Assembly: GCA_041572275.1 (NCBI GenBank)
Contig: JBFFSQ010000004.1
Span: 1-36,037 of the forward strand
DNA length: 36,037 nucleotides
Reading direction: 5' to 3'
From: Gammaproteobacteria bacterium
GTDB taxonomy: Bacteria; Pseudomonadota; Gammaproteobacteria; SZUA-229
The notes beneath the pieces are model-generated. The model ran no database searches, was not told where the DNA came from, and saw only the letters and a list, made by a program, of their open reading frames with translations. The stretch's first letter is position 1, and each line of letters begins with the position of its first letter. Positions 11,278 to 32,272 of this stretch are shown here, one piece after another. The position numbers and the translations under genes were made by a program.

Positions 11278-11805
11278 CTATTGATTGAAACGTCCAATGC
11301 TATCCAATATTTCCTGTTCGGCTTCCTCTACACCCACCCAGCTCTCAACCTTAACCCATTTACCGGACTCCAGTGCCTTGTACTGCTCAAAGAAGTGGGT
11401 GATCTGCCCCAGAATACCGTCATGCAGATCAAAGGGTGATTTCACATCATCATACAGCTTGGTCAGTTGATGAACCGGAACCGCCAGAATCTTATGATCC
11501 TCACCGGCCTCATCAATCATCTTCAACATTCCCACTGGTCGACAACGGATCACCGAACCACTGATCAGAGGAACCGGGGTCACTACTAACACATCGACCG
11601 GATCACCATCCTCTGACAAGGTGTGAGGCATAAACCCATAATTACAGGGATAAAACATCGCCGTACCCATGAAACGATCCACGGTCAGCGTACCACTGTC
11701 TTTATCCACTTCATATTTTACCGGCGAACCATGGGAGGGTATTTCAATTACGACATTAATATCATGAGGAACGTCTTCTCCCAGGGGGAGGTTATCAAGG
11801 TTCAT
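11278..11805 (-). CDS. ppa: Soluble inorganic pyrophosphatase (family I)
   Basis: VKYEVDK, YPCNYGF, DGDPVDV signature, [10 protein letters not shown]. Confidence 0.97.
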
Positions 11806-11981
11806 AGCATTCTTCTTTCTTTAAAAATCCACACAATTACATGAAGTCAGTCTGGGCAGACCCAGGAAACACGCTGATTATATCAACAACTGTGCAGAGA
11901 ATACTCGACATTATCTGAGCATTGATTACAATCCAGAAAACCTACGAACTGGTTCTGGACATTTTAGGGGAAACTTCAGCC

Positions 11982-13340
11982 ATGAGAATCGTTTTATTAG
12001 GAGCACCCGGCTCCGGCAAAGGCACACAGGCAAAACTGCTTGTTGAAAAATATAATGTACCTCAGATCTCCACTGGCGATCTGCTTCGCGCAGCGGTGAC
12101 AGCACAAACCCCACTGGGCAGACAGGCCAAAGCGATTATGGATGCCGGTCAGCTGGTACCCAATGAAATTGTCCTTGGCATGATCCGCGAACGCCTGAAC
12201 AATCCGGATGCCCGAAATGGCTTCATCCTTGATGGTTTCCCTCGCAACGTTGAGCAGGCTGAAGAACTCAATACTCTGCTCAGCAACATGGACAAACCCA
12301 TCGAAAAAGCGATTCTCATTGATGTCGACTTTGATGTCCTCATGCAGCGTCTCACCGGTCGACTATCCTGTGAGAAGTGTGGCGCCGTCTACAACACCTT
12401 CACCAACCCACCGGCTCTGGAAGATGAATGTGATGAATGTGGCAGTGATCTACACCACCGCTCTGATGACAATGAAGAAACCATCGGTAAACGTCTACGT
12501 GTCTATGAACAGCAAACACAGCCTGTGGCTGATTATTACAAGGCACAGAACAAGCTTGCCAGTATTGATGGCATGGGCGACATCAACGATATTTTCAAGG
12601 CAATAAAAGTCGCACTGCAAACACCTTCATCTGCCTTGCCCGTCAAAAAGACACCGGCACCCCTGCCGATTGTAAAGCAGGTTGAAGCTGAAGTTGCCGC
12701 TGCAGAAACCAAACCTGCACCCGAAAAGCCTGCCGAAACGAAAGCGGAAGCCCCAAAACCGGCCCCAGCTAAGACTGAAGCTGCACCGACACCCACTGTC
12801 GCCAAAACAGTAGAAAAACCAGCACCGACAAAGGCCCCGGCCAGTAAGCCTGCTGCCGCGAAAAAACCCGACGTGGAGAAAAAGGCCGCGGCTCAAAAAC
12901 CCACTACAGCTAAAAAAGCAGCAGTGAAAAAGGCCACTACTAAAAAGCCTGCCGCCGCCAAAAAAGCGGCCGTGAAAAAAGAAGCTGCTAAGAAACCTGC
13001 TGCTGCCAAAAAAGCAGCCGTGAAAAAAACTGCTGCTAAAAAGCCTGTCTCCGCCAAAAAAGCGGCCGTAAAAAAAGCCGTCGCCAAGAAACCAGCTGTT
13101 GCAAAAAAAGCAGCTGCGAAAAAAGCCAGGACAACAGCTAGCACCAACCCCATGCAGCAACTACGTGACCAGCTCAAAGCCATGCAGGACGAGCTCAAAC
13201 AAGTCAATGCTGAACTGAAACAGGCTGAAAGCCGCAATCAGGCACTGTTATCGGTGGAGAATCAGAAAGATGGCTTACGTAGCCGCTTCTCCAGTCAATG
13301 GGAAAAAGATCTGATGAAAATGCTGAAAAAGATTAAATAA
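11982..13340 (+). CDS. adk: Adenylate kinase (long Zn-lid type) with C-terminal Pro/Ala/Lys-rich histone-H1-like tail and coiled coil
   Basis: GAPGSGKGT P-loop, ISTGDLLR, GFILDGFPR, lid CEKC...CDEC and RSDD. Start set at ATG 11982, downstream of the SD-like AGGGGA. About 240 extra residues follow the core. Confidence 0.95.
   Translation: MRIVLLGAPGSGKGTQAKLLVEKYNVPQISTGDLLRAAVTAQTPLGRQAKAIMDAGQLVPNEIVLGMIRERLNNPDARNGFILDGFPRNVEQAEELNTLLSNMDKPIEKAILIDVDFDVLMQRLTGRLSCEKCGAVYNTFTNPPALEDECDECGSDLHHRSDDNEETIGKRLRVYEQQTQPVADYYKAQNKLASIDGMGDINDIFKAIKVALQTPSSALPVKKTPAPLPIVKQVEAEVAAAETKPAPEKPAETKAEAPKPAPAKTEAAPTPTVAKTVEKPAPTKAPASKPAAAKKPDVEKKAAAQKPTTAKKAAVKKATTKKPAAAKKAAVKKEAAKKPAAAKKAAVKKTAAKKPVSAKKAAVKKAVAKKPAVAKKAAAKKARTTASTNPMQQLRDQLKAMQDELKQVNAELKQAESRNQALLSVENQKDGLRSRFSSQWEKDLMKMLKKIK
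12894..13133 (+). repeat. Five tandem 48-bp coding repeats (16-aa unit, consensus KKPAAAKKAAVKKxxx) inside the adk tail
   Basis: Units start at 12894, 12942, 12990, 13038 and 13086: QKPTTAKKAAVKKATT / KKPAAAKKAAVKKEAA / KKPAAAKKAAVKKTAA / KKPVSAKKAAVKKAVA / KKPAVAKKAAAKKART. Confidence 0.9.
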
Positions 13341-13374
13341 AATTTTAGAGGCCACTCTAAAAACCAGCATGCAC

Positions 13375-13404
13375 AAAAAAGGCCGGGACATCCCGGCCTT
13401 TTTT
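13375..13404. terminator. Bidirectional intrinsic terminator between convergent adk and thioredoxin
   Basis: AAAAAA-GGCCGGGA-CA-TCCCGGCC-TTTTTT perfect inverted repeat, giving U-tracts on both strands. Confidence 0.9.
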
Positions 13405-13495
13405 GTTTCATTCGCTGTATCCAGTGAGGATTAGCGAGTGCACGAACCCACAAAAGCCCAATGAAAATGACTAATGGCGTTTATACACAAACACC

Positions 13496-13882
13496 TTAGG
13501 AACTGGCGTTAGCCTGTTCAGCAGCCTGTGCCTCAGCAATTTCTGCACGGACTTTGTCCATATCCAGCGTTTTGATCTGACCTATCATGTCATCTAGTTG
13601 TGGCCCTGGAACCATGCCGGCTTCAGCAAAGATAATAATCTGTTCACGGAAGACCATCAGGGTGGGGATTGAACGAATCTGAAAATGGGCAGCTATTGCC
13701 TGCTCTTCTTCAGTGTTGATCTTGCCAAAGACAATATCAGGGTGTTTTTCTGATACTTCTTCGTAAATTGGACCAAATGACTTACAGGGACCGCACCAGG
13801 GCGCCCAAAAATCAATCAGAACGATATCGTTCTCATTTACTGTGGACTCAAGATTTTGCTCGTTCAGTTCGATAGTTGCCAC
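13496..13882 (-). CDS. Thioredoxin
   Basis: DFWAPWCGPCK active site and IRSIPT cis-Pro loop. Start reassigned to GTG at 13882, preceded by AGGAG. Confidence 0.92.
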   Translation of the reverse strand: MATIELNEQNLESTVNENDIVLIDFWAPWCGPCKSFGPIYEEVSEKHPDIVFGKINTEEEQAIAAHFQIRSIPTLMVFREQIIIFAEAGMVPGPQLDDMIGQIKTLDMDKVRAEIAEAQAAEQANASS

Positions 13883-13976
13883 ATTCTTCTCCTGTTGTGA
13901 GTTTTCAGGAATACTCCTGTCAAACTCGGAGTATACAGTATTACTAAATACTAATATATGGCCGTAAGCCGGGTTT

Positions 13977-15767
13977 TCAACCCTGGCGCACTCCATAGAG
14001 TTGACGATACAGACCGTCTCGATTCACCAGCTCGTTATGACTGCCTTCGTCAATGACTTTTCCGCCATCGAACACATAGACCCGATCTGCCTGTTTCACA
14101 GCACTCAGTCGATGAGCGATAATTAGAGTCGTTCGGTTACGTAAGAAGCCCTGCAATGCCTGGTGGAGCTGATATTCAGTCTCGGCATCCAGGGCAGATG
14201 TCGCCTCATCAAGTATCACTATTTTAGGATCCATCAACACCATTCGCGCGACCGCCAGGCGCTGACGTTGGCCACCAGACAAACGCACACCGTTGCGCCC
14301 CACGATGGTATCCAGACCTTCAGGCATATCCAAGATTACCGACTTAAGCTGGGCTATTTCCAGCGCCTGCCACAGGGACGCCTCATCGATATCACGTCCC
14401 AAACAAAGATTATTCCGTACGCTGTCATTGAATAGCGCCGGATGCTGCAATACCGTCGCCACATTTTCGCGCACCACATCCAGTCCAATCTCTGTCACCG
14501 GCACCTCATCAAAATACAGTTGCCCAGATGCAGGTGGATAAAGCCCGAGAATTACCTGTACCAAGGTCGATTTACCACCACCACTGGCACCTACCAGGGC
14601 AATTTTTTCACCGGCCTGAATGGTTAGCGAAACATCATCCAGCACGGGATCACCGGGAGTATAGGCAAAGTGGATATGCTCAAGACGCATACCCACGGTG
14701 TGTTGATGTTCAAAGGGATTCTGTCTATTGGGGTACTGGGGTTCCTGTTTCAGGTGCAGCAAGCGATTAATCCGACCTAATGCGGCATTGGCCGAAAAAT
14801 AGCTATACTGGATCGACAAAATTTCCTGGACAGGCGTCATCATAAACCACAGATAGGCATAGACGGCAAACATCTGGCCGATACTGAGACTGGAAAATAC
14901 CACCATCAACATACTCACGGCCCGAAACATCTCAAAGCCCATCAGAAATACAAAGAATGACAGTTTATTGGCCGCATCACTTTTCCAGCTAAACGCAGCA
15001 GAATGGTGCTTGATACCCCGGGCCCGGTCGATCACCCGTAACAGATAATGACGTTCCCGGTTACTGGCACGGATTTCCTGTATACCGTCCAGAGTTTCAC
15101 TCAAGGATTGCTGAAACAGCTCAAACGCCGAATTTTCCTTTTTTTTCAGCTGTTTAACTTTCTTACCTAGCACCGTAGTGAAATAAATCACCAGCGGGTT
15201 CATCACCAGAATAAACAGGCCCAGTGGCCAGTGGATCAATAACAGTATCACCGCCACACCAGTGATCGTCAGCACAGCTACGATAAATTTACTCAAGGCC
15301 GTACCGATAAATATATCGATGGCTTCAACATCAGTAACCATATGTGATGCCACCGTGCCACTACCCAGGGTTTCATACTCCGCCATGGAGACTCGTTGTA
15401 GCCGCTCCAGCAGGCCTCTGCGAATGCGATAGGTAATTTCCTTGGCCACCTGGGTAAAGGTACGTGTCTGCCAGACAGCCAGGGTGATGGCCAGCGCCCG
15501 TAACAACATGGTTACCAGCATCATGACAAGAATATACAGTACGGCACTATGCCAGCTGTCAGGAAACACCGCATTCATCGTTGCCACCAGCGTCCCTGGC
15601 TGCTGTAGCAACACCTCATCAACTAACAAAGGCATCAGCAGGGGAACTGGCGCACTCACCAGTGCCGCAAAAATCGCAATGATATTGGCATACCACAGGG
15701 TTCGCTTATGCTGCAGTGCAATCTGTCGAATATAAGACCAGCTATATTGGAGTGTATGTTCAGACAT
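13977..15767 (-). CDS. ABC exporter, fused permease/ATP-binding protein
   Basis: N-terminal TM domain, Walker A GASGGGKST, signature LSGGQ, Walker B ILDEATSALD, switch IAHRLS. Confidence 0.93.
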   Translation of the reverse strand: MSEHTLQYSWSYIRQIALQHKRTLWYANIIAIFAALVSAPVPLLMPLLVDEVLLQQPGTLVATMNAVFPDSWHSAVLYILVMMLVTMLLRALAITLAVWQTRTFTQVAKEITYRIRRGLLERLQRVSMAEYETLGSGTVASHMVTDVEAIDIFIGTALSKFIVAVLTITGVAVILLLIHWPLGLFILVMNPLVIYFTTVLGKKVKQLKKKENSAFELFQQSLSETLDGIQEIRASNRERHYLLRVIDRARGIKHHSAAFSWKSDAANKLSFFVFLMGFEMFRAVSMLMVVFSSLSIGQMFAVYAYLWFMMTPVQEILSIQYSYFSANAALGRINRLLHLKQEPQYPNRQNPFEHQHTVGMRLEHIHFAYTPGDPVLDDVSLTIQAGEKIALVGASGGGKSTLVQVILGLYPPASGQLYFDEVPVTEIGLDVVRENVATVLQHPALFNDSVRNNLCLGRDIDEASLWQALEIAQLKSVILDMPEGLDTIVGRNGVRLSGGQRQRLAVARMVLMDPKIVILDEATSALDAETEYQLHQALQGFLRNRTTLIIAHRLSAVKQADRVYVFDGGKVIDEGSHNELVNRDGLYRQLYGVRQG

Positions 15768-21024: not shown

Positions 21025-22230
21025 ATGCCCGTTAAACTCATTCAGATTACTGACACCCACATCCACGACCTGCCGACAACCGAGTTTTACCAGGGCAGGC
21101 CCGATCAATCGCTACAACGCATCGTCCGTCATGCCAAACACTGTGCTCCCGATATTGATGCGGTGATTGTCACCGGTGACCTCACCCATGATGGTGGCGC
21201 ACAGGCCTGCCAACATTTACAAACCCTGCTGGCCGATTTTGACTGTCCGGTCTATGTTACCCTCGGTAACCATGATGTCGGCACAACCATCCGGCAGCAT
21301 CTGCTAAACCAGCAGATCAGTCAGCCGACTTCGGTAACAATTGGACACTGGCAACTCCTGTTTGCCGACAGCCATGTTGATCATCAGGTTAGCGGCTGGG
21401 TAGACCCTGCACGTCTTGATGAGATCAATCAGCATCTACTCCACTCGCCACAACCGGCGATGCTGTTCACCCATCACCCACCGGTCAATATCCAGTGTCA
21501 GTGGCTGGATCGTATAGGCCTCGATAACGGTGATGTTCTCGTGCAACAGCTGCTACCCTTCAAACAGCTTAAAGCCATTGTGTTTGGTCATATTCACCAG
21601 GCCTTCTCTGCTAATATCGAACACCTGCAGCTGCTGGGCACGCCCTCGTCCTGTATCCAGTTCAAGCCCAACAGTAAGAACTTTGCACTGGATACCCGTG
21701 ATCCGGGCTACCGGATCATCGAACTGGAAGACAATGGTGACTGGCATAGCCAGGTCCAGCGTTGTCCGAACCAGCTAAAGAAAATTATCTCCGGTGGACA
21801 GACTGGCGTTGACCGCGCCGCACTGGACATCGCCATCGAACTGGCCATTCCCCATGGCGGCTGGTGTCCACAGGGACGCCGAGCCGTTGATGGTGTCATC
21901 GATGAAAAATACCAACTCATGGAAACTGAATCAGCAGATTATCCTGTGCGTACCGAATGGAATGTCCGCGATGCAAATGGCACACTGGTGCTCAGCTGGG
22001 GTCAGCCAGATGGTGGCACCGCCCTCACTATCCGCATCGCTGAACGTCTGCAAAAACCCGTGCTGGTGATCAACCTCCTTGACCCTGTCGACGCCGAGAG
22101 CTTCTGGCAATGGTTACAACAACATAATATTGAAATTCTCAACATAGCCGGCCCCCGACATAGCAAAGCCGAAGCTCTCACCTCTACAGCTCAATCCTGC
22201 CTGCTAAAATTACTCTGCCACAACGCTTGA
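21025..22230 (+). CDS. CpdA/Icc-like metallophosphoesterase fused to a C-terminal cpYpsA-type SLOG ('putative molybdenum carrier') domain
   Basis: N-terminal DTH, TGDL, GNHD, HHPP, FGHIH, PSSCIQF and PGYR motifs. From 21781: KIISGGQTGVDRAALD, GGWCP, RTEWNVRD, GGTALT and LNIAGPR. One open frame. Confidence 0.88.
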   Translation: MPVKLIQITDTHIHDLPTTEFYQGRPDQSLQRIVRHAKHCAPDIDAVIVTGDLTHDGGAQACQHLQTLLADFDCPVYVTLGNHDVGTTIRQHLLNQQISQPTSVTIGHWQLLFADSHVDHQVSGWVDPARLDEINQHLLHSPQPAMLFTHHPPVNIQCQWLDRIGLDNGDVLVQQLLPFKQLKAIVFGHIHQAFSANIEHLQLLGTPSSCIQFKPNSKNFALDTRDPGYRIIELEDNGDWHSQVQRCPNQLKKIISGGQTGVDRAALDIAIELAIPHGGWCPQGRRAVDGVIDEKYQLMETESADYPVRTEWNVRDANGTLVLSWGQPDGGTALTIRIAERLQKPVLVINLLDPVDAESFWQWLQQHNIEILNIAGPRHSKAEALTSTAQSCLLKLLCHNA

Positions 22231-25238: not shown

Positions 25239-26093
25239 ATGGAATCCCTTTCTGATCAGCAAACACTGGATGAGGTCGAGAAAACCATTTTGCTGGTAGA
25301 TGATGAACCCAATATCATCAAAGCACTTAAACGGCTGTTGCGTCGAGACGGCTATACCATACTCACAGCCACTGATGGACGCACTGGGCTAGACATGCTC
25401 GCGCATAACAAGGTTGGCGTTATCCTGTCGGACCAGCGCATGCCTGAAATGTCCGGTGTCGAATTTCTCAGCCAGGTCAAAGAACTGTACCCGGATACGG
25501 TGCGAATGGTCCTGAGTGGTTACACCGACCTGAATACAGTCACTGATGCAATCAACCAGGGGGCGATTTACAAGTTCCTAACCAAACCCTGGGAAGATGG
25601 GCTGCTAAGAGCAAACATCAAAGATGCCTTCCAGCATTTCAGACTGGTCAGAGAAAACAGACGCCTGCATGCAGAACTTAAGAAACTCAATCAGCTCCTG
25701 GAAAATCGTCTTGATGAACAGAATCGTCTATCCAAGATTGAGTTGCACATGCTCCAGCTAAACCAGGCTGTTCTCGATAACCAGCCGGTAGCAGTTCTTG
25801 GTATCGGGGATGATCAAATGATTGCTGTCGCCAATAATCGAGCCCATGAACTTCTAAATGTTCAAGCCGGCAGCCTGCTCACGGCCTTTGCCAACCAGGT
25901 CTTGCCACAGGAGATCCAGGATGCCTACACCAGGATTGACGATGACACTGAGGAAGTCTGCACAGTCATTCGTTTGAACAAAATTGATTACCAGATCATA
26001 TGCCGACGATTAACAGCTCCTTCAGGCCCACAGGGCTTAGTCATCACACTATTCCCCCGCTACGCAAGCCAAATCAGGCAACTGGACACATAA
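25239..26093 (+). CDS. Response regulator: receiver + coiled coil + degenerate PAS-like domain
   Basis: LLVDDE, SDQRMP (phospho-Asp), LSGYT and TKPW. C-terminal VLDNQPVAVLGIGDDQMIAVANNRA is PAS-like. No HTH. Confidence 0.85.
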   Translation: MESLSDQQTLDEVEKTILLVDDEPNIIKALKRLLRRDGYTILTATDGRTGLDMLAHNKVGVILSDQRMPEMSGVEFLSQVKELYPDTVRMVLSGYTDLNTVTDAINQGAIYKFLTKPWEDGLLRANIKDAFQHFRLVRENRRLHAELKKLNQLLENRLDEQNRLSKIELHMLQLNQAVLDNQPVAVLGIGDDQMIAVANNRAHELLNVQAGSLLTAFANQVLPQEIQDAYTRIDDDTEEVCTVIRLNKIDYQIICRRLTAPSGPQGLVITLFPRYASQIRQLDT

Positions 26094-26094
26094 C

Positions 26095-26412
26095 ATGAAA
26101 CATAAAATAACAATTGAGTTGCCATCGGCCATTGAAGGCATGCAACTGGCCACTGATGCCATCGACGATAAAGGCGTTTGCCTCATAGTTGCCGGTGCCA
26201 CTCTGACAGAAGCATCAATACAAGGTCTAGCCAAGCGCAACATTAAGAGCATTGAAATTTATCAACAGGAACAGCTCACACCCAAGCAGGCACAACAACG
26301 TCGTGCAGAAATCAAAACCCAACTTGACTATTGCTTCAGCAAAACACAAAGCAAGCCATTAATGAGCGATTTAAAACAAATTTTTTACAATTACAGAACT
26401 CTGGACCTTTAA
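26095..26412 (+). CDS. Small hypothetical protein carrying a GMxLAxD...G..L...G..LT...I..L module
   Basis: 105-aa ORF packed 1 nt from both neighbours. The motif EGMQLATDAIDDKGVCLIVAGATLTEASIQGL resembles accessory modules of HD-GYP/HDOD proteins. Confidence 0.75.
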   Translation: MKHKITIELPSAIEGMQLATDAIDDKGVCLIVAGATLTEASIQGLAKRNIKSIEIYQQEQLTPKQAQQRRAEIKTQLDYCFSKTQSKPLMSDLKQIFYNYRTLDL

Positions 26413-26413
26413 C

Positions 26414-27250
26414 ATGCTCAGCCAACAGGAACTCGAACAGGGCATCAAAGACATCCCCCCTCTATCACCTGCCATAGTTGATATTCTCAACATGTTGAAT
26501 GCAGATACTGATGTGGATTTCAGGCTACTGGAGAAAAAACTCCTTCAAGATCCAGGACTGACTGGGCGCGTGCTGGCACTGGCAAACTCACCTTTCTTCG
26601 GTATGGCGGGAGAAGTGAGCCGCGTTAAAGATGCCTGCCTGATTTTAGGGATTAATGCCATCCGAAACCTGGTCATCTCGACTGCCATGATGAAACAATT
26701 TTCATCAAGCTCGGCCAGCAACCTGGATATACAAGGACTCTGGCGTCATTCTATTGCCAGCGCCTCTGCGGCTATAAGCCTGTCACGACACACCAAAATT
26801 GACCAGGACCAGGCATTTACCGCCGCCCTGCTCCATGACATCGGTAAAATGGTGCTCGATATACACTTTCCAGAACATTACCTGCAGGTCATTAAATATC
26901 AACAGGAACAGCAATGCCTCATTCGTGAAGCTGAAGAACACATACTGGGCTGTGACCATAGCGAAGTCGGTGCTCTGGTGGCCCAGAAATGGAAATTACC
27001 CAACGAAATCATTAACACCATCAGAGACCATCATGACCGCGCCGATCCAGAAACAACCGTATTATCAGACCTTGTTAATTTATCCGACATTGTCAGCCGT
27101 GGCCTCGCCCTCGGTAATCCAGGCGATGGTTTTATACCTGAGTTAAACGTGAATATACCGCTCAGACTAAATATTAGCTTAGAGGACATTGCAGACAGCC
27201 TGGCCGAAATTGAAGCACTGTATGACAGCTTCGTCAGCCTGATTGAATAA
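26414..27250 (+). CDS. HDOD domain protein
   Basis: IPPLS, QDPGLTGRVLALANSPFFG, LWRHS, AALLHDIGK, DHSEVG..VAQKWKLP and HH motifs. Confidence 0.92.
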   Translation: MLSQQELEQGIKDIPPLSPAIVDILNMLNADTDVDFRLLEKKLLQDPGLTGRVLALANSPFFGMAGEVSRVKDACLILGINAIRNLVISTAMMKQFSSSSASNLDIQGLWRHSIASASAAISLSRHTKIDQDQAFTAALLHDIGKMVLDIHFPEHYLQVIKYQQEQQCLIREAEEHILGCDHSEVGALVAQKWKLPNEIINTIRDHHDRADPETTVLSDLVNLSDIVSRGLALGNPGDGFIPELNVNIPLRLNISLEDIADSLAEIEALYDSFVSLIE

Positions 27251-27357
27251 GAGAAAATATTGACCTATACATTAATTAATGATGTGTGCATAAACCCGAT
27301 CAGTTAGGCCGTAATCATGATGATATCTTCCACACTCCTAATCAGGCGAACTCGAAC

Positions 27358-28923
27358 ATGAACACCCCGGATATCACACAATGCATGAGTAATTTAAAAG
27401 CGGCAATTAACAGCATGCATCACGCCGGCACTTCAGCGCCAGAGTCAATCGCTGAACAGATTGATGCTGAACTAGATAGTTTAACCAGGGCTGTAGATGA
27501 TGCGTGTAAACAATCTAAACTGGAATCCTCGTCACTAAGCCGAGCCAATGTCAGCATGGTCTTACTTATCGATGCCATGGCTGAATGGCAAACCGCCGAC
27601 ATCGAACGCCAGAAGTCAACTGATAGCCAAAACCTTGAGCTGTTTAAACCAGCACTGGTCGATTTAATGAATGCCACAGATGCACAATTCTCAGTGCTTA
27701 AATTCTATTCCGACAATCACGAAACAAACGGTTTCTATGGCGTTGACACCAGCACAGGCACAACCAAGACTATTACTGACGAATCGGAATTAAGAGGCCT
27801 TGTGCAGTTACATCTGAACTCAACGGTAGTCGAGAAAATTAACGATCTAAGCCACAATGCTCGCACCTGTGATCGGATCGATAGTCTTCAAGGTATTCAT
27901 AACCTGCTCAGCCTGCCACTCATATCAGGCCCCACCATCAAAGGGAAAATATTCATTGCCAATAAAAAAAATGGCCAGGTATTTGATGAGAATGATGTGA
28001 TTATTTGCCGACTATTTAAAACGGCCATATCCCATATCATGGAACGTGACGACCTGCTCATTCAGATCAACCAGGAAAAGGAAGAGCACAAATTATTAAC
28101 CGAAAAAATACACAAGGCTCAAAACCAACTCCTGCAATCTGAAAAAATGGCTTCTATTGGCTCCTTGGCGGCTGGTGTCGCCCATGAAATAAATAACCCG
28201 GTGGGATACATCAACTCGAATATCAGCAGCCTTAAAAATTATATTGCCGATGTATTTCAGATCCTGAATAAATACAATGAACTCGAACCCTCACTAAGCA
28301 ACCAACAAATAAAAGACATAAAAGAACTAAAAGACCAATTAGATATTGATTTCATAAAAGACGACATTATCGAATTGGTCAGCGAATCAGAAGAAGGCGT
28401 AAAGCGAGTCAAGCAAATTGTCCAGGACCTCAAAGACTTCTCTCATGTCGATGAAGCTGAATGGCAATGGACAAATATACATAACGGTATAAACAGCACA
28501 TTAAATATTGCGCATAACGAAACCAAATACAAAGCTGAGGTTATCAAGGAATTTGGCGACATACCCGACATAGAATGCATTATTTCACAACTTAATCAGG
28601 TATTCATGAACCTGATCGTTAATGCCGCCCAGGCAATAGATGACAAAGGCACCATTACCATAAAAACAGAAGCCATCGACACAAACAGGATTCGAATTAC
28701 AATCTCAGACACTGGCAAAGGAATATCAGAAGACAATCTAAATCGAGTATTCGATCCATTCTACACCACCAAACCAGTAGGTAAGGGCACCGGCCTTGGC
28801 CTTTCACTATCTTTTAGCATCATAGAGAAACATCATGGCACAATTGACTTAACCAGCCAGGTAGGCAAAGGAACCATATTCACCATCGAACTTCCCATCC
28901 AGCAACCCGAACCTGCTGCCTGA
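27358..28923 (+). CDS. Cytoplasmic GAF sensor histidine kinase
   Basis: GAF-like segment, H-box SEKMASIG.LAAGVAHEINNP, N-box QVFMNLIVNA, DTGKG, FDPFYTTK and GTGLGL. No TM segment. Start uncertain (GTG 27286 or ATG 27358). Confidence 0.9.
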   Translation: MNTPDITQCMSNLKAAINSMHHAGTSAPESIAEQIDAELDSLTRAVDDACKQSKLESSSLSRANVSMVLLIDAMAEWQTADIERQKSTDSQNLELFKPALVDLMNATDAQFSVLKFYSDNHETNGFYGVDTSTGTTKTITDESELRGLVQLHLNSTVVEKINDLSHNARTCDRIDSLQGIHNLLSLPLISGPTIKGKIFIANKKNGQVFDENDVIICRLFKTAISHIMERDDLLIQINQEKEEHKLLTEKIHKAQNQLLQSEKMASIGSLAAGVAHEINNPVGYINSNISSLKNYIADVFQILNKYNELEPSLSNQQIKDIKELKDQLDIDFIKDDIIELVSESEEGVKRVKQIVQDLKDFSHVDEAEWQWTNIHNGINSTLNIAHNETKYKAEVIKEFGDIPDIECIISQLNQVFMNLIVNAAQAIDDKGTITIKTEAIDTNRIRITISDTGKGISEDNLNRVFDPFYTTKPVGKGTGLGLSLSFSIIEKHHGTIDLTSQVGKGTIFTIELPIQQPEPAA

Positions 28924-28948
28924 CACGCACTTAAACACATGAACCATC

Positions 28949-30265
28949 ATGACCACAAACAACCCAGCATCTACCATTGAAAAAGCCAGCTTGCTTTTCG
29001 TCGACGATGAAAAAAATATATTATCGTCATTAAAACGACTGTTCCGCAGCGAAGGTTACACTATACACCTGGCCAACAGCGGAGCCGAAGGATTGGACAT
29101 CCTTACAACACATAAAATCAATCTGGTCATATCAGACATGCGCATGCCGGAGATGAATGGTGCCGAATTTCTGGAAAAAGTCGCTACCACATGGCCTGCC
29201 GTAACTCGAATACTACTAACCGGATATTCTGAAGTATCCTCAACTATTGACGCCGTAAACAAAGGCAACATCTACAAATACATTAGCAAGCCATGGGAAG
29301 ACAATGACATTAAATTAACTGTCAAGCACGCACTCGAAGCCCAGGCAATTGAAATAGAACGCGACAAGTTACTCGCGCTAACCCAACGTCAAAATGAAGA
29401 ACTTAAAGACTTCAATAGCAAACTAGAAGACATGGTCAAGACACGCACTGCAGAACTCGACCAGACCATGGCCATGCTGGAACGTGCTTATGAGACACTA
29501 AAGGATAGCTACTCGACCACTATACAAGTTTTCTCCAACCTCATTGAACTAAGAGAAGATAATCTTCAAAGCCATTCTAAACAGGTCGCCCAACAGGCCT
29601 ATGATCTGGCATTAACCGTGGGCATGACTGACGACACTGCAAAACAGATTTCTTTTGCCGGACTGTTACGAAATATTGGAAAAATCGGATTCGCAGACAG
29701 CATAAACAGGAAATCTGTTGATGACATGACTCCTACCGAAGCAATTCAGTACAAAAAACACCCGATCCTAGGCTCAAGTATTCTTATGGCCTTAGAACCA
29801 CTGCAAACTGCCGCCTCACTTATCCATGGCTACTGTGAACAATATGATGGCCATGGCTACCCCGATCAACTAGCTGGTGAGAACATCCCCCTTGGCTGCC
29901 GAATCCTCAACGTGGTTAGCGATTTTCATGCATTACAGACGGGCACTCTCATACCAAAAAAACTAGATACCGAGCAAGCAAGAGATTATTTATTATCACA
30001 ACGCGGCAAACGCTACGACCCCAACATTGTCAATGCCTTTATCAATGAACTCATCAAAAATGAACAGCATGACAACATACAAAAGGAAACACTGATTTCT
30101 GCCCATCAGCTCAAAATCAACATGAAACTAGCAAGAGACCTTGTAACCAAAGATGGCATTCTATTGCTATCTGAAGGCCACTTGCTTGGTGAACATATGA
30201 TTAAACAGATAAATAAACTTGAAAAATCACTGGATGAAACACTACAAATTTATATTCACTCTTAA
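28949..30265 (+). CDS. Response regulator with degenerate HD-GYP domain
   Basis: Receiver motifs FVDDE, SDMRMP and SKPW. HD-GYP-like region with LLRNIGKIG in place of LLHDIGK, KKHP, and GYCEQYDGHGYP. Confidence 0.88.
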   Translation: MTTNNPASTIEKASLLFVDDEKNILSSLKRLFRSEGYTIHLANSGAEGLDILTTHKINLVISDMRMPEMNGAEFLEKVATTWPAVTRILLTGYSEVSSTIDAVNKGNIYKYISKPWEDNDIKLTVKHALEAQAIEIERDKLLALTQRQNEELKDFNSKLEDMVKTRTAELDQTMAMLERAYETLKDSYSTTIQVFSNLIELREDNLQSHSKQVAQQAYDLALTVGMTDDTAKQISFAGLLRNIGKIGFADSINRKSVDDMTPTEAIQYKKHPILGSSILMALEPLQTAASLIHGYCEQYDGHGYPDQLAGENIPLGCRILNVVSDFHALQTGTLIPKKLDTEQARDYLLSQRGKRYDPNIVNAFINELIKNEQHDNIQKETLISAHQLKINMKLARDLVTKDGILLLSEGHLLGEHMIKQINKLEKSLDETLQIYIHS

Positions 30266-30279
30266 TATTGAGAACCACC

Positions 30280-30819
30280 ATGTACCAAATAATGTTAGTA
30301 GATGATGAAGAAAACATTCTTAAAGCATTAAAACGTGTGCTCGCCGTCAAAAAAGACTGGAACATAGAAGCTTTTACCTGCGCAGAAGAAGCACTTGCAC
30401 GTGCAACCAAAAAAACATTTGATCTCTATTTATCCGACTATCGAATGCCCAAAATCGATGGTATCAGCTTCCTCACTGCCACCAAAAGCATACATCCTAA
30501 CGCTATGAGAATTGTCCTTAGCGGCTATACAGATTATGACGCTCTCATGGGCGCTATTAATCAAGCCGAAATATTTAGATTCATTACCAAACCCTGGAAT
30601 GACGAGTACCTGATAAATGCAATAACTCAGGCACTGACCTATAAAGACACCTTAATTGAAAATCAGCGACTAGCTGACCAGGTCAGAGCCCAACAAGTTC
30701 AACTTAATAAACAAAAACAAATATTTGAAGACTATAAATCTAAACACCCTGACCTATTTAATGTTGAGTGGGCTGCCGATGGCTCAATAATTATTAACGA
30801 TGATACAGATACAGACTAA
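30280..30819 (+). CDS. Receiver-domain protein with C-terminal coiled coil
   Basis: LVDDE, SDYRMP, LSGYT and TKPW motifs. Short helical tail ending VEWAADGSIII. Start set at ATG 30280. Confidence 0.88.
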   Translation: MYQIMLVDDEENILKALKRVLAVKKDWNIEAFTCAEEALARATKKTFDLYLSDYRMPKIDGISFLTATKSIHPNAMRIVLSGYTDYDALMGAINQAEIFRFITKPWNDEYLINAITQALTYKDTLIENQRLADQVRAQQVQLNKQKQIFEDYKSKHPDLFNVEWAADGSIIINDDTDTD

Positions 30820-30898
30820 GCTGCCATGGTAGTTTCTACCTAAGTCAAAACAAATTCACAATAACTCTTATCACAAGTTTTTCTATGAGATCTTAATA

Positions 30899-32272
30899 TT
30901 GACAGTGAAAATCAACACCACATGGATCTATAACCTTTACCGACTCGGACAGAAGGCCGCTTCTGCTCATGCTAAAGAATCAGCAAGAGAAGATTTCCTA
31001 AGATATATCATTTCAGCCTTTAATGCTGACTCAGGATCATTAGCGCAATCATTGGCCGATGACAAAACTCTCATGATTGTTGCTGGCATTGACATCCCAA
31101 GACAGGCTATTGGTAGCACAATCAAATTCGGCTCAGCCGTTCTTGGCTGGGTTGCAGAAAACAAAAAACCCTTATTGATTAATGGCAAAATATCCAGTGA
31201 TAGCGAATTCAGTAAGCAATTCAAGAACAAACAAGCCAACAAGGAAAAATCATCCATGTGCTGGCCTTTGTTGATCGACAAACAAGTAGTAGGAGTCATC
31301 AGCATCAATAAAAACATGGACAATGGACAATTCACTCAAGATGATCTCAATCGCGGCAATAACTTAATGCACTTCGTCGCACTCGCTGTAGAAACGGCAC
31401 GATCCCATGATCAAACCGAACAATTACTTCAAGATCAAATCAAGCTAAATAAACGGCTTGAAGAGGCACAAAATCAGCTATTACAATCAGAAAAAATGGC
31501 CTCAATTGGTCAATTAGCTGCCGGCGTTGCTCATGAAATCAACAACCCTGTCGGCTACATAAACTCTAATCTTTCAACTCTTGCCAGCTATATCAACAGC
31601 ATATCCAAAATGCTACAGTTGTATGCTGACACTGCTGATCCTGTACTTAAACAAACACCTGAGCATTACAAAAAAATAAAAGATCACAAAAATGATATTG
31701 ACCTTGAATTCATTATGGAAGACCTGCAATCACTCATTGCAGAATCCATGGAAGGCGTTACCCGTGTTAAAAAAATTGTTCAGGACCTAAAGGACTTTTC
31801 CCACGTAGATGAATCAGAATTTAATTGGGCTGATATCCATGGTGGCATCGATAGCACGCTCAACATAGCCCATAATGAAATCAAATATAAAGCCAACGTT
31901 ATCAAAGAATATGGTGACATACCGGAAGTTGAGTGCATTGCATCTCAAATTAACCAGGTATTTATGAATATTCTGGTTAATGCTGCCCATGCTATTGAAG
32001 ACCAAGGAACCATTACCATAAAAACTGGCCGCGGTGATGACGACAATATCTGGATTATTATCCGTGATACTGGATCAGGCATACCCGAGAAGAATCTAAA
32101 GCGAATATTCGATCCTTTTTTTACATCTAAACCGGTTGGACACGGCACCGGCCTTGGGCTGTCCTTATCGTATAGCATTATCGAGAAACATAAAGGACGA
32201 ATAGAAGTTGACAGTACACTTGGGCAAGGTACTGAATTTACAATCTGGCTGCCTATTCAACAACCATCATAA
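30899..32272 (+). CDS. Cytoplasmic GAF sensor histidine kinase (paralog of 27358-28923)
   Basis: GAF segment (GSAVLGWVAENKKPLLI...SMCWPL...VGVISINK), H-box AHEINNP, and N, G1, F, G2 boxes. TTG start. Confidence 0.9.
   Translation: MTVKINTTWIYNLYRLGQKAASAHAKESAREDFLRYIISAFNADSGSLAQSLADDKTLMIVAGIDIPRQAIGSTIKFGSAVLGWVAENKKPLLINGKISSDSEFSKQFKNKQANKEKSSMCWPLLIDKQVVGVISINKNMDNGQFTQDDLNRGNNLMHFVALAVETARSHDQTEQLLQDQIKLNKRLEEAQNQLLQSEKMASIGQLAAGVAHEINNPVGYINSNLSTLASYINSISKMLQLYADTADPVLKQTPEHYKKIKDHKNDIDLEFIMEDLQSLIAESMEGVTRVKKIVQDLKDFSHVDESEFNWADIHGGIDSTLNIAHNEIKYKANVIKEYGDIPEVECIASQINQVFMNILVNAAHAIEDQGTITIKTGRGDDDNIWIIIRDTGSGIPEKNLKRIFDPFFTSKPVGHGTGLGLSLSYSIIEKHKGRIEVDSTLGQGTEFTIWLPIQQPS

What the first reader, a model, noticed from the sequence alone, without database searches (positions are those of the whole stretch)
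11982..13340. Adenylate kinase fused to a histone-H1-like polycationic tail and terminal coiled coil
Seen: an intact Adk core of about 213 aa, a Pro/Ala/Glu/Lys linker, five KKPAAAKKAAVKK repeats, and a roughly 60-aa heptad-patterned helix (MQQLRDQLKAMQDELKQVNAELKQAE...). Known: AKP-rich repeats bind polyanions in AlgP (DNA, polyphosphate granules), PhaF (nucleoid tether with a coiled coil) and chlamydial HctB. Inference: an oligomerising Adk tethered to the nucleoid or to polyP granules, buffering adenylates locally, or a nucleoid protein tuned by energy charge. I recall long Adks in some related bacteria but know of no functional characterisation of the tail.
Basis: partly seen in the sequence, partly recalled or inferred. 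Interest (0 to 1): 0.8.

Follow-up and report, generated by a model that had tools for sequence, protein, structure and literature searches.

The report
Adenylate kinase with histone-like coiled-coil tail
A real, conserved extra copy of the energy-balancing enzyme adenylate kinase carries a long lysine-rich, histone-like tail ending in a helix that it shares with small DNA-binding-type proteins, which suggests that the enzyme is anchored to the chromosome or another polyanion.

Summary
Window 11982-13340 (+) encodes a 452-aa protein with four parts:
- an intact Zn-lid Adk core (aa 1-213);
- a near-neutral Pro/Ala/Glu spacer (214-288);
- five 16-aa Lys/Ala repeats (289-383, net +32);
- a 62-aa C-terminal helix (391-452, AlphaFold pLDDT 91-97).

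It is not an assembly artefact. Contigs from four studies bridge the core/tail junction without indels. All 120 best homologues are 332-468 aa long.

New findings:
- The terminal helix is a conserved domain with no Pfam or NCBIfam model.
- The same domain ends small stand-alone basic proteins (two more in this genome). These carry Lys/Ala repeats here and AT-hooks in other gammaproteobacterial families, and usually sit beside xerD (hhalign 97.9%, reciprocal profile hits).
- The tailed Adk is an extra paralogue. The genome also has a plain adk, and relatives have up to three.
- The fusion was found only in one uncultured gammaproteobacterial order. A second, unrelated Lys/Ala-tailed Adk lineage (NF010381) exists elsewhere.

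Best reading, inferred and not shown: an active Adk tethered to a polyanion by the cationic tail and clustered through the helix. Nucleoid DNA is the most likely polyanion; polyphosphate and RNA are the rivals. Oligomerisation could not be tested because the complex predictor was unavailable.

The parts
11905..11932 (+). sigma-70-like promoter candidate (TCGACA-16-TACAAT), about 50 nt upstream of the ATG
   Evidence: Consensus scan, 10 of 12 matches. It is a pattern match only.
11982..13340 (+). complete CDS of the tailed adenylate kinase (452 aa plus stop), P0001
   Evidence: The identical protein is on record as P0002. A contig of run X3 covers 12068-13420 with 1 difference and no gaps.
11982..12620 (+). 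Adk catalytic core, aa 1-213 (P-loop GAPGSGKGT at aa 7-15)
   Evidence: PF00406 E 3.7e-57. NF001380 303.1 bits against a cut-off of 251. pLDDT >90 for most of the core, 82-88 in four of the 10-residue blocks across the lid region. P-loop, R36, R88, R123, R127, R160, D162, D163 and R171 are invariant in 69 homologues.
12360..12467 (+). lid with four Cys (C130, C133, C150, C153), the Zn-lid type
   Evidence: PF05191 E 2.6e-13, aa 127-162. The four Cys are invariant in alignment A2. Zinc binding is inferred from the known Cys4 lid type.
12621..12845 (+). disordered Pro/Ala/Glu/Thr/Lys spacer, aa 214-288, near neutral (net +3)
   Evidence: Composition. pLDDT about 40-54. Mean pairwise identity 0.28 and gap fraction 0.30 in 69 homologues.
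12846..13130 (+). polycationic Lys/Ala(/Pro/Val) region, aa 289-383, net +32, holding five 16-aa repeats (aa 301-380)
   Evidence: TRF array 12846-13127, period 48 nt, 5.8 copies. Repeat register, charge. PF07382 HC2 42 bits against a cut-off of 40. pLDDT 35-49.
13152..13337 (+). conserved C-terminal helical domain (CTD), aa 391-452; shared with small stand-alone basic proteins
   Evidence: Alignment A1. Single helix with pLDDT 91-97. No Pfam or NCBIfam family. The stand-alone profile A3 finds it in the whole genome at E 2.0e-9. hhalign A1 against A3 gives 97.9%, E 6.4e-13.
13373..13406 (+). intrinsic terminator hairpin (GC stem, ACAU loop, U tract), 33 nt after the stop
   Evidence: RNA fold -26.1 kcal/mol, z -8.1, 0 of 200 shuffles as stable. 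The consensus scan did not list it.

Best explanation
The gene encodes a catalytically intact, accessory adenylate kinase paralogue whose C-terminal 240 residues act as a tether.

Shown:
- The core has every Adk hallmark.
- Residues 214-389 are predicted disordered.
- Residues 289-383 are a +32 Lys/Ala repeat of the histone-H1/AlgP/PhaF compositional type.
- The last 62 residues are a conserved amphipathic helix, homologous to the C-terminal domain of small stand-alone proteins. The rest of those proteins is either Lys/Ala repeats or canonical AT-hooks.

Inferred:
- The cationic repeats bind a polyanion non-specifically. Chromosomal DNA is the most likely one.
- The terminal helix forms coiled-coil homo-oligomers, and possibly mixed oligomers with the stand-alone paralogues. 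This would raise avidity and place Adk where those proteins sit.
- The near-neutral 75-aa spacer lets the core move freely.

The result would be a pool of Adk held on the nucleoid. It would equilibrate ATP + AMP <-> 2 ADP locally, where ATP-consuming and AMP/PPi-producing DNA and RNA transactions take place. A plain cytosolic Adk paralogue would serve the bulk cytoplasm.
For: Real and intact.

Extra paralogue:
- The genome has a second, plain 212-aa adk with 47% identity.
- 23 of 25 genomes of the family, including this one, have an Adk match in a frame of at least 327 aa. About 22 of 25 also have the plain Zn-lid type and 14 of 25 the ordinary gammaproteobacterial type.
- In a tree of 28 cores the long forms are one clade (support 99/99), separate from both plain types.

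Fixed chromosomal locus: the gene lies divergent from mrdA-rodA in 8 of 8 relatives examined.

The tail is under selection for its kind. The 100 aa before the terminal domain carry net +14 to +36 (median +25) in 114 homologues. The terminal domain shows 0.47 mean pairwise identity with 2% gaps, against 0.28 and 30% gaps for the spacer.

The terminal domain is shared with small basic proteins:
- A1 finds P0122 in this genome (E 5.9e-6).
- A3 finds the Adk tail (E 2.0e-9) and a third protein on contig C47 (E 7.2e-6).
- BLASTP gives 33% identity over 57 aa, E 1e-8. hhalign gives 97.9%.
- The domain folds as one long high-confidence helix in both models.

Pointers to DNA:
- A stand-alone homologue has 5 AT-hooks (PF02178, E 1.1e-13). 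P0132 is precomputed as AT_hook. L122 shows five RRGRPPGKK motifs by eye.
- XerD is the neighbouring gene in 5 loci above the cut-off, plus one partial.
- This genome's TopA (NF006451, 1378 bits) ends in a Lys/Ala tail of the same kind.
- KPAA-type peptides bind DNA according to passages read in PMC9239181 and PMC3574117.

Convergence: an unrelated Adk lineage (NF010381) also carries a Lys/Ala tail.
Against: - No binding, localisation or oligomerisation was measured.
- The same kind of repeat sits on polyphosphate granules in P. aeruginosa (AlgP, PMC9239181) and binds specific mRNAs (PhaF, PMC12818456), so the ligand is not settled by composition.
- This genome has ppk1 and two ppk2 genes.
- Lys-rich tails here also sit on RNA enzymes: RNase R, a DEAD-box helicase and Der.
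- The Adk tail itself has no AT-hook.
- Profile comparisons of coiled-coil-like helices can be inflated by shared composition. A1 scores P0122 at only 28 bits.
- A high pLDDT for a lone helix says nothing about partners.
- In some genera the second half of the domain is replaced by a Lys-rich end, or the domain is not detected, so it is not indispensable.
- No expression data were obtained.
Confidence: 0.5

Rival explanations
1. Polyphosphate-granule tether. The Lys/Ala tail binds polyP as AlgP does, so Adk sits on polyP granules. There, with PPK1 or PPK2, it would couple polyP to AMP and so regenerate ADP and ATP (a local polyP:AMP phosphotransferase system).
For: AlgP, with the same repeat chemistry plus a helical domain, localises to polyP granules, and this depends on polyP kinases (PMC9239181, passages). 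The genome encodes PPK1 and two PPK2. ppa lies next to the gene here and in 4 of 8 relatives. That E. coli Adk and PPK together give polyP:AMP phosphotransferase activity is recalled (Ishige and Noguchi, PNAS 2000) and was not seen here.
Against: The stand-alone relatives of the terminal domain use AT-hooks in other families. AT-hooks are a DNA minor-groove motif, not a known polyP motif. No polyP gene lies at the locus. ppa is a housekeeping gene and is missing from the locus in 4 of 8 relatives. AlgP's helical N-terminal domain was not compared here, because no AlgP sequence was fetched.
Confidence: 0.2
2. RNA or ribosome association. The disordered Lys/Ala region binds RNA, as the PhaF KPAA region does. 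This would place Adk on ribosomes, mRNA or an RNA-rich condensate, where GTP and ATP turnover is highest.
For: The PhaF KPAA region binds target mRNAs directly, and this is lost on Lys-to-Ala change (PMC12818456, passages). In this genome Lys-rich tails are also carried by RNase R, a DEAD-box helicase and Der.
Against: Those RNA-enzyme tails are Lys/Arg-rich without the regular Lys/Ala repeat (printout). The closest compositional matches in the genome are TopA and the small AT-hook-related family. No RNA motif lies at the locus (Rfam: 0 matches in the window), although this says little about protein-RNA binding.
Confidence: 0.12
3. No specific tether. The tail is a tolerated low-complexity expansion, acting as an entropic bristle or solubility tag, or as an autoregulatory segment folding back on the acidic core (core net charge -7).
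For: The spacer and the basic region evolve fast and vary in length: the tail is 119-255 aa in 121 proteins. A strain with 98% identity in the core differs at many tail positions. The domain's second half is replaced by a Lys-rich end in several of the 120 listed homologues, and in some genera the domain is not detected.
Against: The net charge of the basic region is kept (minimum +14 in 114 proteins). The terminal domain is conserved: only 1 of 62 residues differs between P0001 and P0003, whose disordered regions differ at many positions. The tail is retained across the 19 genera of the order. Its terminal domain is shared with free-standing proteins. An independent Adk lineage evolved a similar tail.
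Confidence: 0.07
4. Assembly or annotation artefact: a plain adk joined in silico to a neighbouring histone-like gene, or separated from it by a missed stop or frameshift.
For: None was found. The tail is repetitive DNA, which is where assemblers do err.
Against: Contigs of runs from four studies cover the junction at 12620 with no indel: X3 12068-13420, X5 12495-12811, X6 12542-12947, X8 12579-12761. The 120 best homologues from many assemblies are 332-468 aa. 23 of 25 family genomes have the long frame.
Confidence: 0.01

Closest known systems
AlgP (AlgR3) of Pseudomonas aeruginosa
   Same: It combines a helical domain with a long disordered Lys/Pro/Ala repeat of histone-H1 composition. The repeat binds polyanions: DNA in vitro and polyP granules in vivo (PMC9239181, passages).
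   Different: AlgP has no enzyme. Its helical domain is N-terminal and 124 aa long. Its repeat unit is the 4-aa KPAA, against a 16-aa unit here with only three exact KPAA (read by eye from the sequence printed). Homology of the helical parts was not tested, because no AlgP sequence was fetched.
PhaF phasin of Pseudomonas putida and P. aeruginosa
   Same: It has a modular design: a targeting helix, a short coiled coil that oligomerises (tetramer by ultracentrifugation) and a Lys/Ala/Pro nucleic-acid-binding tail (PMC3574117; PMC12818456). It works like the tether proposed here.
   Different: The cargo is a PHA granule, not an enzyme. The order of domains is reversed. Neither Pfam phasin model appears among the terminal domain's matches at E<=10. 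Neither PhaC_N nor PF05597 was found in this genome.
NF010381 (PRK13808) 'adenylate kinase', the long Adk of another proteobacterial class
   Same: It is an Adk core followed by a Lys/Ala-rich tail of about 95-120 aa (L143-L147). It is catalogued by NCBI simply as adenylate kinase.
   Different: It is a different core lineage: our protein scores 205.7 bits against a cut-off of 426, and only over aa 1-128. It has no Pro/Glu spacer and no terminal helical domain. It was over the cut-off in 5 of 401 genomes of the phylum sample, all in one family. It is therefore a convergent case.
Chlamydial Hc2/HctB (Pfam PF07382 HC2) and Burkholderia H1-like protein (NF038053)
   Same: Lys/Ala-rich repetitive composition. 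PF07382 scores 42.0 bits against a cut-off of 40 over aa 240-448.
   Different: The match is compositional and spans 209 low-complexity residues. NF038053 scores 27.1 bits against a cut-off of 80. Those proteins are stand-alone nucleoid condensers without an enzyme or the terminal domain.
H-NS/MvaT/Lsr2-type DNA bridgers
   Same: The logic is the same: a coiled-coil oligomerisation domain, a flexible linker and a small cationic or AT-hook-like DNA-binding part (PMC6936261, search listing and start of abstract only). This is the closest functional analogue of the stand-alone relatives.
   Different: There is no sequence relation (searches list no H-NS family). The orientation is reversed, with the DNA-binding repeats N-terminal. 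Bridging is not shown.
Lysine-repeat tails on DNA enzymes (PAKKA repeats of Mycobacterium smegmatis Ku; TopA tails)
   Same: A Lys/Ala low-complexity tail appended to an enzyme and modulating DNA binding (PMC3553676, listing and start of abstract only). This genome's own TopA has such a tail.
   Different: Those enzymes act on DNA themselves. Adk has no DNA substrate, so here the tail would serve localisation only.

Membership tests
Adenylate kinase (PF00406 / NF001380 / TIGR01351) | Whole-protein score above the curated cut-offs over the full core | tested here: met
   PF00406 193.1 bits against 26.8. NF001380 303.1 against 251 and TIGR01351 261.3 against 168, covering aa 1-213.
Adenylate kinase (PF00406 / NF001380 / TIGR01351) | P-loop GxPGxGKGT and the phosphate-binding Arg/Asp residues of core and lid | tested here: met
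   G7-T15, R36, R88, R123, R127, R160, D162, D163 and R171 are invariant in the 69 aligned long Adks. Their roles follow from established knowledge of Adk. Activity itself was not tested.
Zn-lid (Cys4) subtype of long-lid Adk | CxxC ... CxxC in the lid | tested here: met
   C130, C133, C150 and C153 are present and invariant. PF05191 E 2.6e-13. Metal binding cannot be tested here.
NF010381 (PRK13808) long adenylate kinase | Score of at least 426 bits over the 335-position model | tested here: not met
   205.7 bits, best stretch aa 1-128 only.
Pfam HC2 (PF07382, chlamydial histone H1-like Hc2) | Score above the gathering cut-off that reflects homology rather than composition | tested here: inconclusive
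   42.0 bits against a cut-off of 40. The match runs through Lys/Ala low-complexity sequence, and only 10 of the 120 listed homologues carry PF07382 in their precomputed domains. I do not file the protein as Hc2.
NF038053 histone H1-like DNA-binding protein (Burkholderia type) | Score of at least 80 bits | tested here: not met
   27.1 bits.
AlgP/PhaF KPAA-repeat proteins | Long tandem array of the 4-aa KPAA unit | tested here: not met
   The repeat unit here is 16 aa (48 nt). There are three exact KPAA, read by eye from the sequence. The composition is alike, the repeat is not.
AlgP/PhaF KPAA-repeat proteins | Phasin (PF05597) or AlgP N-terminal helical domain | tested here: not met
   Neither Pfam phasin model appears among the terminal domain's or the tail's matches at E<=10. 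The AlgP N-domain was not compared, because no AlgP sequence was fetched.
AT-hook proteins (PF02178) | An RGRP-core AT-hook motif | tested here: not met
   There is no PF02178 match in P0001 at E<=1. AT-hooks occur only in stand-alone relatives of the terminal domain.
Unnamed family: small polycationic proteins ending in the 'KFxxKW' helical domain (A3) | A C-terminal domain of about 58-62 aa, found by reciprocal profile search and lying directly after a polycationic repeat region | tested here: met
   A1 to P0122: E 5.9e-6. A3 to the Adk tail: E 2.0e-9. hhalign 97.9%, 60 gapless columns. The placement after Lys/Ala repeats is the same. Caveat: helical, Lys-rich profiles can inflate scores.

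The most novel reading that the evidence does not exclude
The terminal helix defines an undescribed family of bacterial chromatin proteins: variable DNA-binding repeats (AT-hooks or Lys/Ala) followed by a C-terminal coiled coil, usually encoded beside xerD. One uncultured marine gammaproteobacterial order has fused this whole chromatin-binding module to a dedicated adenylate kinase paralogue. Adk would then co-assemble with the free proteins on the nucleoid. This would be a bacterial case of a core energy-metabolism enzyme built into chromatin to buffer adenylates where DNA and RNA transactions consume them.
Probability: 0.3. Interest if true: 0.8.

Novelty: new variant of a known kind. Interest (0 to 1): 0.6.

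Why it matters
Adenylate kinase is normally treated as a freely diffusing housekeeping enzyme. Here a whole bacterial order keeps, at a fixed chromosomal locus, a separate Adk paralogue. Its tail is built from the same parts as small histone-like or AT-hook proteins of the same genomes. A second lineage has independently added a Lys/Ala tail to Adk.

If the tail is a tether, adenylate buffering in bacteria can be spatially organised on the nucleoid or on polyanion condensates. That question is currently discussed mainly for polyP granules and AlgP.

The case is directly testable, because every part is small, soluble and separable: core, spacer, basic repeats, helix.

Independently of Adk, the work brings out an unannotated family of candidate nucleoid proteins. 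Sources name them 'hypothetical protein' or 'colicin import membrane protein'.

Tried and rejected
The queue was full every time, and the tool was declared unavailable. Nothing was folded, so oligomerisation is untested.
- The search for related loci with A1 failed because the alignment has no stretch conserved enough. Repeated with P0001, it mostly returned ordinary Adks and 'uncultured Gammaproteobacteria' titles, and was of little use.
- phmmer of the 62-aa domain against 1.8 billion representatives gave only 7 hits of 53-458 aa. This is uninformative about other fusions.
- The word-based search with P0122 aa 86-150 gave 1 hit. With A3 and 'longer' lengths it gave 3 hits.
- The exact look-up of 10 stand-alone proteins found none in the collection, so no source names were obtained.
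- The ESM Atlas search with aa 385-452 had a best score of 0.78, a 149-aa hypothetical cluster. This is below the level that means anything.
- The A1 profile against PDB sequences had a best E of 0.012, which is coiled-coil noise. No fold search was run, because a lone helix gives meaningless matches.
- Rfam found nothing in the window.
- PHA-granule reading: PhaC_N and PF05597 were not found in the genome. This is weak evidence, because class III synthases may lack PhaC_N (recalled).
- Parts of the gene without contig cover in X5, X6 and X8 are not evidence of absence.
- Contamination as the source of the second adk on the 2.4-kb contig C197 is rejected, because the same plain type recurs in about 22 of 25 family genomes and forms its own clade.
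Full report
**1. Is it there?**

Yes. An open frame runs 11922..13340 on the + strand. From the ATG at 11982 it gives 452 residues without a stop (P0001). A promoter-like site (TCGACA-16-TACAAT, 11905-11932) lies upstream. A strong hairpin with a U tract lies 33 nt after the stop (13373-13406, -26.1 kcal/mol, z -8.1). The gene therefore looks monocistronic. It sits between a divergent inorganic pyrophosphatase (11278-11805, PF00719) and a convergent thioredoxin (13496-13996), next to the mrdA-rodA-mltB-rlpA-dacA cell-wall cluster. The window is ordinary chromosome, and Rfam finds nothing in it.

**2. Anatomy**

- Residues 1-213 are a complete adenylate kinase: PF00406 E 3.7e-57, lid PF05191 E 2.6e-13, NF001380 303 bits against a cut-off of 251. 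The P-loop, the catalytic Arg and Asp residues and four lid cysteines are invariant in 69 aligned homologues.
- AlphaFold2 on that alignment gives pLDDT above 90 for most of the core, 35-54 for residues 214-389, and one uninterrupted helix with pLDDT 91-97 for residues 390-451.
- The disordered part has two halves. Residues 214-288 are a near-neutral Pro/Ala/Glu/Thr/Lys spacer (net +3). Residues 289-383 are a Lys/Ala region with 34 K + 1 R and net +32.
- The Lys/Ala region contains five 16-aa units, seen as a 48-nt tandem array at 12846-13127.

**3. Not an artefact**

- The identical protein is on record (P0002), and a 98%-identical one as well (P0003).
- All 120 best homologues are 332-468 aa long. 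114 of the 121 proteins match at least 50 of 62 positions of the terminal-domain profile, 2 match partly and 5 not at all.
- Logan contigs of four runs from four studies were laid on 11900-13420. One contig covers 12068-13420 with one difference and no gap. Contigs of the other three studies bridge the core/tail junction (12620) with no difference and no indel.
- These are contigs, not raw reads. X3 comes from the same study as the samples that may be the source of this DNA.

**4. The terminal helix is a domain, and it has free-standing relatives**

- I aligned 33 terminal stretches that are less than 62% identical to each other (A1). Mean column identity is 56%. The consensus is LKxLQxELKQVxAEL..TEKR...L..IE..KD..RKQFS..WEKD..K.LKK.K.
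- The conserved hydrophobic positions have a best period of 3.55 residues; 9 of 500 shuffles reach that power.
- Pfam, NCBIfam and PDB sequences give nothing significant.
- Searching the window's own genome with A1 found a second copy at the end of a 159-aa protein on contig C1 (P0122, E 5.9e-6). The rest of that protein is KKKAAAA-type repeats. P0122 has no Pfam or NCBIfam match.
- I collected this stand-alone protein from 21 genomes of the same family, including the window's own, and from 6 genomes of other gammaproteobacterial families, and aligned 26 of their terminal domains (A3).
- hhalign of A1 against A3 gives 97.9% probability, E 6.4e-13, over 60 gapless columns. A3 in turn finds the Adk tail in the whole genome at E 2.0e-9, and a third small basic protein on contig C47 at E 7.2e-6.
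- AlphaFold2 models the domain in P0122 as the same long helix, pLDDT 90-97.
- Caveat: both profiles are helical and Lys-rich, which can inflate such scores. What argues for true homology is the reciprocity, the conserved F...W...K..K.L/M pattern, and the identical position directly after a polycationic repeat.

**5. What the relatives say about function**

- Outside the window's family the cationic part of the stand-alone protein changes while the terminal domain stays. One protein has five AT-hooks (PF02178, E 1.1e-13). Another shows five RRGRPPGKK motifs by eye. A database hit, P0132, is precomputed as AT_hook. Others have KKAASKKK-type repeats.
- The gene lies beside xerD in five loci above the TIGR02225 cut-off, plus one partial. 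In the window's own genome it lies beside a moeA-like gene, identified by eye only.
- AT-hooks are DNA minor-groove binders (established knowledge). The stand-alone family therefore looks like nucleoid proteins with interchangeable DNA-binding repeats and a constant C-terminal helix.
- In this genome the only other regular Lys/Ala tail found by a whole-genome scan is on DNA topoisomerase I (NF006451, 1378 bits). Less regular Lys/Arg tails sit on RNase R, a DEAD-box helicase and Der.

**6. The tailed Adk is an extra paralogue of one lineage**

- The genome holds a second, plain 212-aa adk on contig C197 with 47% identity.
- Among 25 genomes of the family, including this one, 23 have an Adk match in a frame of at least 327 aa. 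The two exceptions are G005, with a 246-aa frame, and G008, which is 57% complete. About 22 have the plain Zn-lid type, and 14 have a third type that resembles the sole Adk of other families (types assigned by match length and score class).
- A maximum-likelihood tree of 28 cores recovers three clades: long forms (10 rows, support 99/99), plain Zn-lid (8 rows, 100/99) and ordinary gammaproteobacterial (10 rows, 100/97). The second adk is therefore not contamination, and the fusion arose once.
- The long gene keeps its place, divergent from mrdA-rodA, in 8 of 8 relatives examined. ppa lies in between in 4 of 8 and a thioredoxin gene downstream in 4 of 8.

**7. Distribution**

- With A1, 20 of 24 other genomes of the family matched at E<=1e-3, and 0 of 16 genomes of other families did.
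- The order consists of this one family: 55 of 97 genomes matched at E<=1e-4, in long frames of 366-493 aa and short frames of about 89-210 aa.
- In an even sample of the class, 8 of 397 genomes outside the family matched, all in frames of 149-212 aa and none fused to Adk. One of the eight, G391, is flagged unpublished. G343 was not scored.
- With A3, 0 of 400 other genomes of a phylum sample matched at E<=1e-5.
- The stand-alone form is thus older and sparsely spread, and the Adk fusion is specific to this order among the genomes searched.
- Names that sources give to members: 'endosymbiont of Galathealinum brachiosum', 'hydrothermal vent metagenome', 'Gammaproteobacteria bacterium'.
- The runs laid are labelled marine, mangrove and marine-sediment metagenomes.

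**8. How the tail varies**

- Across 69 aligned long Adks, mean pairwise identity is 0.78 in the core, 0.28 in the spacer, 0.40 in the basic region and 0.47 in the terminal domain. Gap fractions are 0, 0.30, 0.20 and 0.02.
- The charge of the basic region is kept: net +14 to +36 in the 100 aa before the domain, median +25, n = 114.
- Between P0001 and P0003 the disordered region differs at many positions, but the 62-aa domain differs at one.
- In some genera the second half of the domain is replaced by a Lys-rich end or by a different coiled coil. The first helix and the positive charge are the constant features.

**9. A convergent case**

NCBIfam NF010381 (PRK13808, 'adenylate kinase', 335 positions) does not fit our protein: 205.7 bits against a cut-off of 426. 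It is over its cut-off in 5 of 401 genomes of a phylum sample, all in one family with 6-9 Mb genomes. Those Adks are 284-309 aa long and end in a Lys/Ala tail (AKKAAKK...KKRAKR) without spacer or coiled coil. Lys/Ala-tailed Adks are therefore already catalogued, though only under the enzyme's name, and they arose at least twice.

**10. Mechanism**

Shown:
- an intact enzyme;
- a disordered, strongly cationic region;
- a conserved terminal helix shared with AT-hook or Lys/Ala proteins.

Inferred:
- The cationic repeats bind a polyanion.
- The helix oligomerises, with itself or with the free paralogues, giving avidity and co-localisation.
- The spacer decouples the core from the anchor.

I favour DNA as the polyanion (about 0.5), because of the AT-hook relatives, the xerD neighbourhood and the TopA tail. 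PolyP is the main rival (about 0.2). AlgP, with the same chemistry, sits on polyP granules in a polyP-kinase-dependent way (PMC9239181, passages), and the genome has ppk1 and two ppk2 genes. RNA comes next (about 0.12): the PhaF KPAA region binds mRNAs (PMC12818456, passages). PhaF also shows that a short coiled coil next to such a tail can make tetramers (PMC3574117, passages). Oligomerisation could not be tested, because the complex predictor was never available.

**11. Literature**

Five full-text searches combined 'adenylate kinase' with histone H1-like, C-terminal extension, lysine-rich, nucleoid, polyphosphate granule or AlgP, or combined AT-hook with nucleoid-associated protein and coiled-coil. 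They found no paper on a tailed bacterial Adk or on the stand-alone family. The library lacks most subscription journals, so this is not proof of absence.

**12. Verdict**

Novelty: a new variant of known kinds, namely an Adk plus an H1-like tail, with an undescribed terminal domain that ties it to a family of candidate nucleoid proteins. Interest 0.6.

Noticed in passing
own genome, contig C1:49945-50424 (-) (= L004:1462-1941 -), P0122: A stand-alone 159-aa protein: KKKAAAA-type repeats, then the same terminal helical domain as the Adk tail, then a KRRKKRK end. It has no Pfam or NCBIfam match. Relatives occur in most genomes of the family. In other families they carry AT-hooks and lie beside xerD. 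It is a candidate undescribed nucleoid protein.
   Followed up: yes
own genome, contig C47:7008-7439 (-) (L159): A third small basic protein (143 aa) whose C-terminus matches the stand-alone domain profile (A3: E 7.2e-6 genome-wide). It has an extra helical stretch before the domain.
   Followed up: partly
own genome, contig C119:3684-6155 (-) (L160): DNA topoisomerase I (NF006451, 1378 bits) ends in a Lys/Ala tail of about 55 aa (RKGRKKKVAKKKAAPKKKAAAKKK...). This is the same chemistry as the Adk tail, on a bona fide DNA enzyme.
   Followed up: partly
own genome C197:290-928 (-) (L002), and relatives: The family carries up to three adk paralogues. The plain Zn-lid type is almost invariant between genera (tip lengths 0.01-0.13) but sits on a very long stem (1.8) in the tree, which would fit acquisition from outside. 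This genome and G004 lack the ordinary gammaproteobacterial type.
   Followed up: partly
L143-L147 (genomes G651, G541, G767, G799, G773): An independent lineage of Adk with a Lys/Ala tail of 95-120 aa and no coiled coil (NCBIfam NF010381). It occurs in one family with large genomes in another class of the phylum.
   Followed up: partly
G031:C5:234395-234934, G035:C29:14823-15377, G033:C1:171539-172090: Adk-domain matches inside open frames of 638, 548 and 454 aa in other gammaproteobacterial families. These may be other Adk fusions. They were not examined.
   Followed up: no
window 12519-13142, minus strand: Eleven terminator-like hits (2.7 expected) and long antisense ORFs (12627-13160, 177 aa; 12893-13237, 114 aa) lie inside the tail-coding repeat. 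They are by-products of the GC-rich/A-run repeat (GCNGCN AAAAAA read backwards), not features.
   Followed up: partly
window 21025-22230 (+): A fusion of a calcineurin-like phosphoesterase (PF00149) with a circularly permuted YpsA SLOG domain (PF12694, E 4.4e-55). SLOG domains are nucleotide-binding (from recall). Its role here is unknown.
   Followed up: no
window 25239-32272 (+): A dense signalling cluster: a response regulator, a 105-aa ORF with no Pfam match (26095-26412), an HDOD protein, a histidine kinase, a response regulator with an HD_5 (PF13487) domain, another response regulator, and a GAF histidine kinase.
   Followed up: no
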